A DNA stretch of 32,618 nucleotides from Trichomonas gallinae (Eukaryota): assembly GCA_008369845.1 (NCBI GenBank), contig MRSU01000274.1, forward strand, positions 1-32,618, given 5' to 3'. A model generated the notes under the pieces. That model was given only the letters and a program-made list of their open reading frames with translations, did no database searches and was not told the origin of the DNA. The translations under genes and the position numbers were made by a program. Positions 1 through 21,050 of the stretch are shown piece by piece; the first letter of the stretch is position 1; each line of letters opens with the position of its first letter.

Positions 1-866
1 TTTTGTTGATCATTTGCAAAATATGTATTAAGTTGTTGTTTTAGACGATTCATTGTGCGCATGCGTTTAACTGCATATGGCTCGTCCAAATCATCTTCTG
101 CAACTTCTTCTTGCACTTTTTTAAGAATTGATTTTGGATATCTGTGAACATCGACTTGGTGTTGAAGTAGTTCCTTCTTCGTAGCGAATACAATGAATCC
201 CTGCATAACACAGTTCGGATGCTCGCATGCATAGTGTTCAGTGTGAAAATGAACTTGAATAAGTTCCAAAGAATCAAACCAGTTCTCTTTACCTAAAGAT
301 GCGCAGATATCACACTTAAAGTGGTTCTCTTGTAAGTGTTTCGTTAAAGTATTTCCATCAAATCCGATATATTTGCAGCAAGGGCATTTTGGATGCTGTT
401 TCATGTGCTGTTGCATTTCATTTTTGCTAAATAGTGGTGTTTCGCATGGTAAAAATCGTTTTGAATCGAAACAAATTTCGCATGGCTCTTTCTTATGAAG
501 TTTTCTTGTATGTCCTTTAAGAGTCTGAAAGTTCGCACAAACTGCATTACATTCGGTGCAAGTAATCTTTCTAAATCCTGATACTTCCTGAATATCATCT
601 TTTGAGTCGTAATAGATATGATAAAATGTATCATGTGGTCTAGATTTCTGTACCTCGACTTCATATGACTCCAGCTCTTTCGATGTCGAGACGATTGGAT
701 CGGTCGTTACCTCTCTTTGGCAGAATGGGCATTTAGATTCATTGTAGCACATGACCATCGTCTCGTAGCACTTCAAACAGAAGTTGCTGTGATTGCACGG
801 AAGCAGTATTCTGCGCTTGATTGGCTCCCCACAGATAAGACAGTCGCCGAATCCGGAATCACTCAT
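1..866 (-). CDS. Hel2/ZNF598-like RING + C2H2 zinc-finger E3 ubiquitin ligase (3' end truncated by window edge)
   Basis: My translation from the ATG at 866 is open to base 1: MSDSGFGDCLICGEPIKRRILLPCNHSNFCLKC...CPFCQ (RING), then HPKCPCC...HLQENHFKCDIC...HFHTEHYACEHPNC...FATKKELLQHQVDVH, matching the Hel2/ZNF598 zinc-finger array. Inr-like TCATTT at 874-879. Absent from the ORF track because there is no stop inside the window. Confidence 0.85.
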   Translation of the reverse strand, partial: MSDSGFGDCLICGEPIKRRILLPCNHSNFCLKCYETMVMCYNESKCPFCQREVTTDPIVSTSKELESYEVEVQKSRPHDTFYHIYYDSKDDIQEVSGFRKITCTECNAVCANFQTLKGHTRKLHKKEPCEICFDSKRFLPCETPLFSKNEMQQHMKQHPKCPCCKYIGFDGNTLTKHLQENHFKCDICASLGKENWFDSLELIQVHFHTEHYACEHPNCVMQGFIVFATKKELLQHQVDVHRYPKSILKKVQEEVAEDDLDEPYAVKRMRTMNRLKQQLNTYFANDQQ

Positions 867-12901: not shown

Positions 12902-13381
<480 letters not shown>

Positions 13382-17773: not shown

Positions 17774-18019
17774 ATTTTTGATTCTTTTGACACTTTTTAT
17801 AACGCAATCGTCTGATTTTATTTTTCTTCTGACTTCGATTGAAAATTATCATAAGATTAAATCTGTCTTATATAAATGCGTTCTAACAGACCCGTGGATC
17901 ATTGCTATGTGAACTATTTCCTCAAATATTATAGAGAAATCATGGTGACAATATTTTTGACATGTATACTTTACAATGTCAAAAATATGACACATTTCAT
18001 CCGTTAGAAGTAAGAGAAT

Positions 18020-18987
18020 ATGGAGCTATTTCAGGCAGCAAAGGCGAATCAGGTTGATAAGATTACTGAGTTACTAGGAAATGGAGCAGATGTTAATACC
18101 AAGGGAATTTATTATATTTTTATTTTGTTTATTTTTATTTTCATAATATTCATTAATTTTTCATGACGAAACTCCTCTTCACTGGGCTGCAATTGCTGGA
18201 TCTGTTGATGCTGCAAAGTTACTTATTGAAAAAGGCGCTGATATTAATGCACAAACAGAAATTCGTTATTAACTTTTTACTATATTCGTCATAAAATCAA
18301 AGAGAAACACCATTACAACTCGCAGTACAAGAAAATAAAGTTGAAGTTGTTGAATTACTTATTGAAAATAAAGCTGATCCAAATATTAGAAATTATGATG
18401 GTGAAAATTGCATATTTACTGCAATAAGATGGGGCCATCCTGACCTACTCAAGCCACTTATCGATGCTGGCGCTGATCCAAACCAATACAACAAGAAATC
18501 ACAATCACCCTTACACGTTTGCGTAGAATACAAAGCAGAACCAGAGGCACGCACACTTATGCTATACAAGGCTGATCCAAGATATCAGGACTCCCTTGGA
18601 CGCACGCCTTTCCATACAGCAGTTTTAAATCGCGATTCAGAAATGTCTAAGTTATTCCTCGAATGCGGCGATGATCTCGCACTTATACGTGACCATAGTC
18701 TCAAAACAGTCTGGGATGGCGTCCCAGAAGAGTTCAAGAAAACAGTTATTCCAAAAGATATTCCTCAGCCAGAAAATAACGGAAATAATAAGGAAGCTCC
18801 ACCAGAGGATGAATACCAGTGGCTTAAGGACAAGAAATGCTTCATGTGTCGTAAAATGGACGCTGAGAAGATTGTTTTGCCTTGCCGCCACTGCGTTTTG
18901 TGCAACAACTGCACGCCAAAGTTCTTAGAAACGCATTTCCAATGCCCACAATGTAAGATGGCAATATTCGGATCTGCCAGAGCATAA
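18020..18987 (+). CDS. Ankyrin-repeat + C-terminal RING protein, split by two non-canonical inserts (~18110-18161 and ~18261-18297)
   Basis: Three frames join into MELFQAAKANQVDKITELLGNGADVNTKG // HDETPLHWAAIAGSVDAAKLLIEKGADINAQTE // QRETPLQLAVQENKVEVVELLIENKADPN...GRTPFHTA...CFMC..PCRHCVLC..C..CPQC. The ORF track captures only 18559-18987. Confidence 0.8.
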
Positions 18988-20510: not shown

Positions 20511-21050
20511 TAATTTCTTATGAAAACAAAAGAAATCTTCCTGTAATAATGTAAGGCACATTGGAGAGATTTCGTAGTAATGAAGAAATTGATTATCGTT
20601 TGTTCAATATTGAGCAAATTTCGTGTGAATGTCTTAGGAATTCTTTCATGATATACAACACAAGGCAAAGCTTTAATGTATAGGTAGAATTTTGTATAAC
20701 AACTGAATGAAGAATTCACTGATATAAATTCGTGTGAAATCCAAGGAAATGTGATACTAATGTATAATTCAAGGCAGATCTTTTATAGTGAAGAAGAAAA
20801 GTATTGCATTGCTCAATAAAGATTTCAATATAAAAATTTCGTGTGATAGCTTTGGAAATCCTTTAATGATATACAATACAAAGAAAGAGATTTAAAATAA
20901 AAGCGGAATTTGGTTAAACTGTTCAAAGAAGCTTGAATCGAGATAATTTCGTGTGGAAGCCTTGGAAACCCATTAATGAAAAGCAACAAAAGGCAAAGCA
21001 TTAATATATAGGTAGTATGAATTAAACAGCTGAAAGATGAATGAAATGGT
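20511..21050. repeat. Degenerate ~109-bp tandem repeat (4 clear units + 1 decayed)
   Basis: TCGTGTG at 20621, 20730, 20839 and 20949; AAGGCA at 20553, 20662, 20771, (20880 variant) and 20990. Confidence 0.85.

What the first reader, a model, noticed from the sequence alone, without database searches (positions are those of the whole stretch)
18020..18987. Ankyrin-RING gene interrupted twice at the same repeat position by non-spliceosomal-looking inserts: candidate novel splicing or recoding system
Seen: the gene lies in three successive frames, each shifted +1. Both breaks fall in the beta-hairpin linker of consecutive ankyrin repeats (GADVNTKG|insert|HDETPLH and GADINAQTE|insert|QRETPLQ). 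Both inserts begin with ATT, are AT/T-rich, contain TCATAA and contain or abut stop codons. The three uninterrupted linkers downstream all have 8 residues from N to the TPLH position; restoring that spacing needs removal of 52 nt and 37 nt, both 3n+1, giving an intact ~292-aa protein. Established: trichomonad introns are rare GT-AG introns with a conserved branch-point/3' motif (ACTAAC...AG), which is absent here. Inference: random decay would not hit the homologous site twice and leave the rest intact, so the inserts may be removed by non-canonical splicing, skipped by ribosomal bypassing, or be site-specific insertion elements targeting ankyrin-coding DNA.
Basis: partly seen in the sequence, partly recalled or inferred. 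Interest (0 to 1): 0.92.

Follow-up and report, generated by a model that had tools for sequence, protein, structure and literature searches.

The report
Tiny non-GT-AG introns in trichomonads
A conserved ankyrin-RING gene of trichomonad protists is broken by tiny U-rich inserts (17, 17 and 52 bases) that lack the near-universal GT-AG intron ends, keep their length in distant relatives and are missing from a likely RNA-derived contig, so they are likely introns of an undescribed kind that current motif-based annotation would discard.

Summary
The break is real and old. The gene lies in three frames. A contig from a run only guessed to be RNA (X2, about 1% from the insert-bearing DNA run X1) lacks the inserts exactly and is open for 293 codons. 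The product aligns gaplessly with intact orthologs at both linkers. A distant ortholog (L001) is broken at both linkers (53 and 34 nt). T. vaginalis TVAG_383780 keeps the same 40-nt span. Tritrichomonas orthologs read as broken at the third linker (19 or 22 nt). Exons are under purifying selection (pN/pS 0.13). No span holds AG or CTAA; no hairpin or IRE1 motif. Pieces start RTY and mostly have an A 7-8 nt before the end. Verdict: RNA-level removal about 0.8; degenerate spliceosomal splicing slightly favoured over nuclease-plus-RtcB. Limits: one RNA-like contig, no reads, no spliced T. vaginalis or Tritrichomonas protein found, one gene only.

The parts
18020..18106 (+). Exon 1, 29 codons: start and first (partial) ankyrin repeat
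   Evidence: X2 contig laid on 18015-18105 plus one letter; 14 of 29 residues identical to L001 exon 1
18107..18158 (+). Insert 1, net 52 nt, AT..TT as a single piece. An equally valid parse is 17 nt (18107-18123) + 3-nt Phe micro-exon (18124-18126) + 35 nt starting GT (18127-18161), favoured by in-register conservation with L001
   Evidence: absent from X2, present in X1; 96 parses fit X2, none canonical, none ending AG; alignment to L001 span, shuffle p 0.004
18159..18260 (+). Exon 2, one full ankyrin repeat
   Evidence: Pfam Ank E 9e-11; X2 piece 18159-18260; 22 of 33 residues identical to L001
18261..18277 (+). Insert 2a, 17 nt, AT..TT, holds an in-frame TAA
   Evidence: absent from X2; unique placement
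18278..18283 (+). 6-nt micro-exon coding Tyr-Tyr, matching Tyr-Phe of intact orthologs
   Evidence: these six letters stand between the two sides of the X2 joint (table 5c); compatible at the same offset with the off-frame N-terminus of T. vaginalis TVAG_383780
18284..18300 (+). Insert 2b, 17 nt, AT..AA (can slide by one base)
   Evidence: absent from X2; 2 parses in all for this junction
18301..18987 (+). Last exon: further ankyrin repeats, acidic/proline linker and C3HC4 RING finger, stop
   Evidence: Pfam; 76% identical to T. vaginalis TVAG_383780

Best explanation
The three inserts are likely tiny non-canonical introns cut out of the mRNA, most likely by the trichomonad spliceosome reading a degenerate RTY donor and measuring to an AG-less 3' end, which would give a 293-residue ankyrin-RING protein predicted to be a ubiquitin ligase. 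Shown: the gene is split in DNA; one close-relative contig lacks exactly these pieces and is in frame; the breaks recur in distant orthologs; no piece has GT-AG ends, a CTAA branch motif or stable structure. Inferred: that the contig is mRNA (about 0.8 for RNA-level removal); that an A 7-8 nt from the 3' end is the branch point; that a gene-specific factor supplies the specificity the weak signals lack; and, weakest, that the chain of 3-4 difficult splices works as an on-switch, since the unspliced message stops after 48 codons.
For: Removal: X2 is one 882-nt contig = 18015-18105, one letter, 18159-18260, six letters, 18301-18980, with no loose ends, while X1 keeps both inserts and runs on into both flanks. 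The six letters are the centre of insert 2. X2 and X1 share 18 differences from the window in the exons; 6 are X1-only and 3 X2-only, so X2 is very close to an insert-bearing genome. A second run of that study (X4) gives an 897-nt ortholog-like contig unbroken at both linkers, again of coding length. Function: gapless match to intact 289-291-aa orthologs at both linkers; 18 silent to 9 replacement changes among 27 listed exon sites, pN/pS 0.13, p 3e-7. Age: L001 has spans of 56 and 40 nt where the window has 55 and 40; T. vaginalis has the same 40-nt span, 32 of 40 positions compatible; 6 Tritrichomonas-cluster proteins with 4 different off-frame N-termini all imply 22 nt at linker 3, T. foetus 19 nt. 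Spliceosome: 8 of 8 parsed pieces start RTY and the 3 RNA-fixed starts are all ATT (shuffle p 0.001), close to the type B donor GTWYWD (PMC13548475); A at -7 or -8 in 7 of 8 (post hoc p 0.02), as in trichomonad introns with a branch site fused to the 3' end (PMC12316389); 4 of 6 17-mers have A at position 10, the branch position of 15-nt Stentor introns (PMC9505925); no structure for a nuclease to read (z +2.8 and +0.5).
Against: Only one contig of one run shows the removal; the tool marks that run 'RNA?, a guess', and contigs carry no read-level junction or strand. One letter at junction 1 was not shown and is inferred to be the window's own. Three protein searches found no full-length T. vaginalis or Tritrichomonas product: 5 of 32 ortholog sequences examined are full length, none from those named species. 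Some lineages lack the inserts, apparently in DNA (intact proteins on 14-15-kb contigs), so insert-free genomes exist. For the spliceosome: 0 AG and 0 CTAA in all 4 spans; all 63 published T. vaginalis introns are GT-AG and at least 23 nt; piece L2a has no A at -7/-8; 5 of the 8 pieces are parsed, not RNA-fixed, and were chosen partly by the RTY start, so that count is partly circular; signals this weak should hit AT-rich mRNAs widely, yet the 20 other window genes checked are single open frames.
Confidence: 0.45

Rival explanations
1. Same RNA-level removal, but by a spliceosome-independent cut-and-join route: an unknown endonuclease (possibly ribosome-coupled, since every RNA-fixed cut can lie at a codon boundary) and an RtcB ligase, in the manner of HAC1/XBP1 but without IRE1.
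For: Gene-specific, frame-shifting, 17-22-nt pieces; no GT-AG, no branch motif; T. vaginalis appears to have four RtcB orthologs (PMC8718801, passage); the unspliced frame ends in a 19-residue hydrophobic tail, recalling the hydrophobic patch of unspliced XBP1 (PMC4891664, passage).
Against: IRE1 is listed as absent from excavates in a kinome comparison that includes T. vaginalis (PMC3218828, passage); 0 of 19 candidate cut sites fit CNG|CNG and 41-nt windows around 6 cuts fold at 0 to -0.2 kcal/mol; the RTY start and the A at -7/-8 get no explanation; the hydrophobic tail follows from U-richness alone and is weaker in L001.
Confidence: 0.3
2. The X2 organism lost the inserts from its DNA (or X2 is a DNA run or a retrocopy), and insert-bearing species make the protein by translational bypassing or frameshifting.
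For: X2 is only guessed to be RNA; insert-free orthologs occur on long contigs; no spliced product of T. vaginalis or Tritrichomonas in the protein collection; trichomonad recoding has been proposed (bioRxiv 10.64898/2026.08.31.748405).
Against: It needs three exact deletions that spare a 6-nt middle, within about 1% divergence from X1; such loss normally copies a spliced mRNA, which again implies splicing (inference). X2 and X4 contigs both have coding-sequence length. Matching take-off and landing codons are missing at inserts 2a and 2b.
Confidence: 0.12
3. The X2 contig is a reverse-transcription or assembly artefact and the inserts are never removed.
For: Single contig, single run; insert 1 is low-complexity and partly skipped by the tool.
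Against: No direct repeat at the ends of 2a, one base at 2b; no hairpin to skip; three skips that restore the frame and reproduce the linker length and aromatic residues of intact orthologs; depth 16 with no unspliced form laid from that run.
Confidence: 0.05
4. A decayed gene, or a gene whose real product is only the C-terminal part as annotated in T. vaginalis and Tritrichomonas.
For: Public annotations give 246-, 201- and 140-aa products; only 3 polymorphic sites fall in exons 1-2 between strains, too few to test them alone.
Against: Exon 2 is 22 of 33 and exon 1 14 of 29 identical to L001, against 69 of 130 for the last exon, over a path of more than one change per site; insert lengths are held while their sequence drifts; annotated N-termini are off-frame reads of the inserts.
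Confidence: 0.03

Closest known systems
Trichomonas type B spliceosomal introns (23-26 nt, GTWYWD N7 TCTAACAAACAG; PMC12316389, PMC13548475)
   Same: Short, T-rich, uniform length; 5' end resembles GTWY (one parsed piece starts GTTTAT); an A about 8 nt before the 3' end in most pieces
   Different: 17 nt is below the 23-nt minimum; first base A in all three RNA-fixed pieces; no CTAA, no AG; several pieces per gene with 3-6-nt exons, whereas the 63 published transcripts have single introns
Tiny spliceosomal introns of Stentor (15-16 nt, branch A at position 10-11; PMC9505925)
   Same: Size; AU-richness; A at position 10 in 4 of 6 17-mers and at 11 in a fifth
   Different: Most Stentor introns are GU-AG and occur genome-wide; these lack both ends and were seen in one gene
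HAC1/XBP1/bZIP60 unconventional introns (IRE1 + tRNA ligase)
   Same: One gene, short frame-shifting intron at a conserved place, possible on-switch
   Different: No twin hairpins, no CNG|CNG (motif recalled), IRE1 reported absent from excavates, several introns, target is a predicted E3 ligase and not a bZIP factor
Nonconventional introns of euglenids and diplonemids (PMC11170887, PMC12621601; search listings only, features recalled)
   Same: Non-GT-AG nuclear mRNA introns in protists
   Different: Those pair their ends in a stem-loop and are widespread; these are unstructured and far shorter
U12-type AT-AC introns (consensus recalled)
   Same: Start with AT; fixed branch-to-acceptor distance
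   Different: No ATATCC donor, no CCTTAAC branch box, ends TT/AA/AT, far too short
Ankyrin-repeat C3HC4 RING E3 ligases (Mind bomb, plant XBAT; recalled)
   Same: Ankyrin repeats followed by a zf-C3HC4_3 RING
   Different: No solved structure matches beyond the ankyrin part; substrate unknown; ligase activity untested

Membership tests
Trichomonad type A/B spliceosomal intron | GT donor and AG acceptor | tested here: not met
   0 of 96 and 0 of 2 parses that fit X2 are canonical or end in AG; 0 AG in 4 of 4 spans
Trichomonad type A/B spliceosomal intron | Branch motif (A/T)CTAA fused to the 3' end | tested here: not met
   0 CTAA in 4 spans; 0 motif hits in the window. An A at -7/-8 is present in 7 of 8 pieces
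Trichomonad type A/B spliceosomal intron | Length 23-26 or 50-196 nt | tested here: not met
   two pieces of 17 nt; published range
Spliceosomal intron of any kind | Lariat formation and snRNP dependence | not testable with these tools
   needs lariat sequencing or depletion
Intron (any mechanism) | Present in DNA, absent from mature RNA of the same organism | tested here: inconclusive
   present in window and X1, absent from X2; X2 is a different sample and only guessed to be RNA
IRE1-type unconventional intron | Cuts in CNG|CNG hairpin loops | tested here: not met
   0 of 19 sites; no local hairpins; motif recalled
IRE1-type unconventional intron | IRE1 kinase-RNase in the organism | not testable with these tools
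   no genome held; reported absent from excavates (PMC3218828)
Euglenid-type or tRNA-type (bulge-helix-bulge) structured intron | Stable pairing that brings the two ends together | tested here: not met
   whole region folds worse than 200 of 200 shuffles, L001 no better than chance; no Rfam hit in the window
U12-type intron | ATATCC donor, strong branch box, AC or AG end | tested here: not met
   starts ATTT/ATTC, ends TT/AA; consensus recalled
Introner or site-specific mobile insert | Near-identical copies, terminal repeats or target duplications | tested here: not met
   none at the insert ends in window or L001; interiors diverged; genome-wide copy search not possible
Translational bypassing (T4 gene 60 type) | Gap kept in mRNA; matched take-off and landing codons; hairpin | tested here: not met
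   gaps absent from X2; no hairpin; codons unmatched at 2a and 2b (by inspection)
Ankyrin-RING E3 ligase | Ankyrin repeats plus intact C3HC4 RING | tested here: met
   Pfam Ank_2 E 1.5e-22, zf-C3HC4_3 E 1.3e-8 above cut-off
Ankyrin-RING E3 ligase | Ubiquitin ligase activity | not testable with these tools
   needs an assay

The most novel reading that the evidence does not exclude
Parabasalids run a fourth kind of nuclear mRNA splicing: unstructured 17-22-nt U-rich units are measured out from an RTY start and excised one after another, without GT-AG, IRE1 or hairpins, by a nuclease and RtcB or by a specially licensed spliceosome. The system is old, has put introns independently into three different ankyrin linkers of one E3-ligase gene, serves as its switch, and hides other genes now annotated as split, read-through or pseudogenes in Trichomonas.
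Probability: 0.35. Interest if true: 0.95.

Novelty: new variant of a known kind. Interest (0 to 1): 0.86.

Why it matters
Trichomonas is a textbook case of few introns with nearly invariant signals. Both recent catalogues filtered on those motifs (PMC12316389 discarded 99.7% of questionable junctions; PMC13548475 used motif scans), so an AG-less class could not appear in them. If these are spliceosomal, they break both terminal-dinucleotide rules at close to the smallest known intron size; if not, they are a new enzymatic mRNA-splicing route in a lineage without IRE1. Either way the case is directly testable in culturable T. vaginalis (TVAG_383780) with long-read data that already exist, and it offers a rival reading for some of the split or 'readthrough' gene pairs reported there.

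Tried and rejected
No whole genome is held, so no genome-wide count was possible. Whether X2 covers intergenic DNA, and whether other window genes have such joints in X2, remains untested. HMMER over 50% representatives was swamped by long ankyrin proteins and gave no new ortholog in the best 150. Locus searches: metagenome contigs gave 16 loci, of which 2 (L001, L002, identical over the stretch compared) are orthologs; prokaryote genomes gave 2 unrelated ankyrin loci; viral contigs none. Canonical alternatives: a frame-restoring GT-AG of 40 nt (18265-18304) and several AT-AC pairs exist on paper but none gives the X2 sequence; rejected. Internal guide pairing: insert 2b is complementary to the start of exon 2 (12 nt, 92%), but L001 shows no counterpart; rejected as mechanism. 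Raised silent-site conservation near junctions: 7 of 13, 11 of 21 against 33 of 66 in the last exon; none. TCATAA as a signal: not in L001. Rfam: 0 hits. Earlier scan notes: nothing on this gene, genome or relatives. Literature: TVAG_383780 is in 0 papers and not in the main text of two intron catalogues or the 3 supplement files of one.

Full report
Setting. The window is gene-dense, AT-rich eukaryotic DNA. The last exon of the gene in question is 76% identical to T. vaginalis TVAG_383780, so the source is a Trichomonas relative. No whole genome is held. Twenty other genes of the window are single open frames; 11 of the 20 match a Pfam family at E up to 0.001.

Observation. The gene runs from ATG 18020 to the stop at 18987 in three frames, each shifted by +1. 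The pieces score as ankyrin (first piece weakly) and end in a zf-C3HC4_3 RING. Both breaks are in hairpin linkers. The inserts are not assembly errors: run X1 (guessed DNA) has one contig over 17930-19008 with both inserts, 37 other letters and one indel upstream of the gene.

Removal. Of 6 listed runs, 2 hold part of the stretch; I laid 4. X2, marked 'RNA?, a guess', gives one 882-nt contig: 18015-18105, one letter, 18159-18260, six letters, 18301-18980. So 52 nt are missing at break 1 and 34 nt at break 2. The six letters are the exact middle of insert 2 (18278-18283), with 17 nt on either side, both beginning ATTCGT. Only 2 parses give this junction, differing by one base; 96 give junction 1; none is GT-AG, GC-AG or AT-AC throughout and none ends in AG. 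The one letter at junction 1 was not printed, because the tool skips part of the low-complexity insert; I take it to be the window's own base, which the lengths allow. The result is 293 codons without a stop. Signs that X2 is RNA are indirect: the contig starts a few bases before the ATG and ends a few before the stop with no loose ends while X1 goes on; X4 of the same study gives an 897-nt contig whose loose ends read, by my translation, as an unbroken ortholog at both linkers; X3 laid nothing. In the exons X1 and X2 share 18 differences from the window, 6 are X1-only and 3 X2-only, so X2 is about 1% from an insert-bearing genome. Eight of X1's 37 differences were not listed by the tool and are not in these counts.

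The product is the right protein. Intact 289-291-aa orthologs exist (P0003, P0046, P0047 and cluster members). The X2-type product aligns with them without a gap at both linkers: Phe-His-Asp against Phe-Asn-Asp at the first, Tyr-Tyr-Arg against Tyr-Phe-Arg at the second. The micro-exon thus supplies conserved aromatic residues. Among 27 listed exon sites 18 are silent and 9 replacement (pN/pS 0.13, binomial p 3e-7); only 3 lie in exons 1-2.

The breaks are old. L001 (a metagenome contig; L002 is identical over the stretch compared) encodes an ortholog on a long branch of the same supported 7-row clade as the window and T. vaginalis. It is broken at both linkers: spans of 56 and 40 nt against 55 and 40 in the window, net 53 and 34 nt. 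Exons 1, 2 and the first 130 codons of exon 3 keep 14 of 29, 22 of 33 and 69 of 130 residues. Span 1 is conserved beyond composition (global alignment p 0.004), span 2 is not (18 of 40, p 0.11). The in-register match in span 1 suggests 17 nt + a 3-nt Phe exon + a 35/36-nt piece starting GT in both species; this parse is inference. The annotated T. vaginalis protein starts off-frame just before break 2; back-translated, it gives the same 40-nt span with 32 of 40 positions compatible, the micro-exon included. In the Tritrichomonas clade the break is at the third linker: 6 proteins with 4 different off-frame N-termini all imply 22 nt, and T. foetus TRFO_23312 19 nt. Of 32 ortholog sequences examined, 5 are full length, 9 show such an off-frame start, and 18 begin internally or are partial and do not tell. 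Intact proteins on 14-15-kb contigs show that some lineages have no inserts. Against my reading: no full-length T. vaginalis or Tritrichomonas protein turned up in three searches.

Mechanism. Negative tests: no AG and no CTAA in the 4 real spans, no type A or B motif in the window, 0 of 19 candidate cuts with CNG|CNG, no local hairpins; the region folds worse than all 200 shuffles, L001 like chance; no terminal repeats; no Rfam family. Positive features: every piece starts RTY (8 of 8 parsed, partly circular; the 3 RNA-fixed ones all ATT, p 0.001) and 7 of 8 have an A at -7 or -8 (post hoc p 0.02). Trichomonad type B introns start GTWYWD and carry a branch site fused to the 3' end; metamonad introns are uniform in size with strict branch-to-acceptor spacing; Stentor splices 15-nt introns with the branch A at position 10, where 4 of 6 17-mers have an A. 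I therefore put a spliceosome that reads a degenerate donor and measures to the 3' end first (0.45 overall), a nuclease plus RtcB second (0.30): T. vaginalis appears to have four RtcB genes but IRE1 is reported absent from excavates. Both need a gene-specific factor that I cannot name. DNA-level loss in X2 with recoding elsewhere gets 0.12, artefact 0.05, decay 0.03. The unspliced frame stops after 48 codons in the window and 41 in L001, so removal is required for any full protein; that this is a regulated switch for an E3 ligase is speculation.

What is known. Nine literature searches listed no report of such introns in parabasalids; the library lacks most subscription papers. Seen: PMC12316389 (passages, first half of Results, search of its 3 supplement files): 63 introns, all GT-AG, shortest 23 nt, junctions without motifs discarded. 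PMC13548475 (abstract, passages, two sections; supplements not searched): motif-guided, 48 introns. bioRxiv 10.64898/2026.08.31.748405 (abstract, first part of Results; supplements not seen, and its candidate table may list this locus). PMC6679479, PMC9505925, PMC3218828, PMC8718801, PMC4891664, PMC13149111: passages only. PMC6260720: listing and a term search without hits. PMC11170887 and PMC12621601: listings only. The IRE1, U12, bulge-helix-bulge and gene 60 rules and the Mind bomb/XBAT comparison are recalled.

Verdict. A real, conserved feature that works like an intron and fails the tested defining features of every intron class considered. I file it as a new variant of a known kind because the spliceosome is not excluded; if it proves independent of the spliceosome it is categorically new. 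Interest 0.86. The weak point is that removal rests on one contig whose RNA origin is a guess.

Noticed in passing
window 20600-21020: Intergenic degenerate tandem repeat of about 110-nt period, apparently four copies (three aligned at 61-77% over 82 nt), between two genes; no long open frame.
   Followed up: partly
window 18159-18170 and 18285-18296: Insert 2b is complementary to the start of exon 2 (12 nt, 92%) and pairs with it in the predicted fold; 2a has a similar core. No counterpart in L001.
   Followed up: partly
window 18107-18166: Unspliced reading adds a 19-residue hydrophobic tail before the stop, like a tail anchor; probably a by-product of U-richness.
   Followed up: partly
window 18162: X1 has T here, turning His into Tyr at the first codon after span 1, or, under another parse, changing the last bases of a piece; X2 keeps the window's base.
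   Followed up: no
proteins P0177, P0051, P0170-P0174, P0001: Public gene models of T. foetus TRFO_23312, T. musculus KAK8886461 and T. vaginalis TVAG_383780 are N-terminally truncated; two of them start with off-frame insert sequence and likely need re-annotation.
   Followed up: partly
window 1-860 (minus strand): A second zf-C3HC4_3 RING gene runs off the window start; an E2 ubiquitin-conjugating gene lies at 12902-13366. No link to the finding shown.
   Followed up: no
L001 271-1110 and 2667-3065: The neighbours of the ortholog in L001 differ from those in the window and look like repeat-family genes; no synteny.
   Followed up: no
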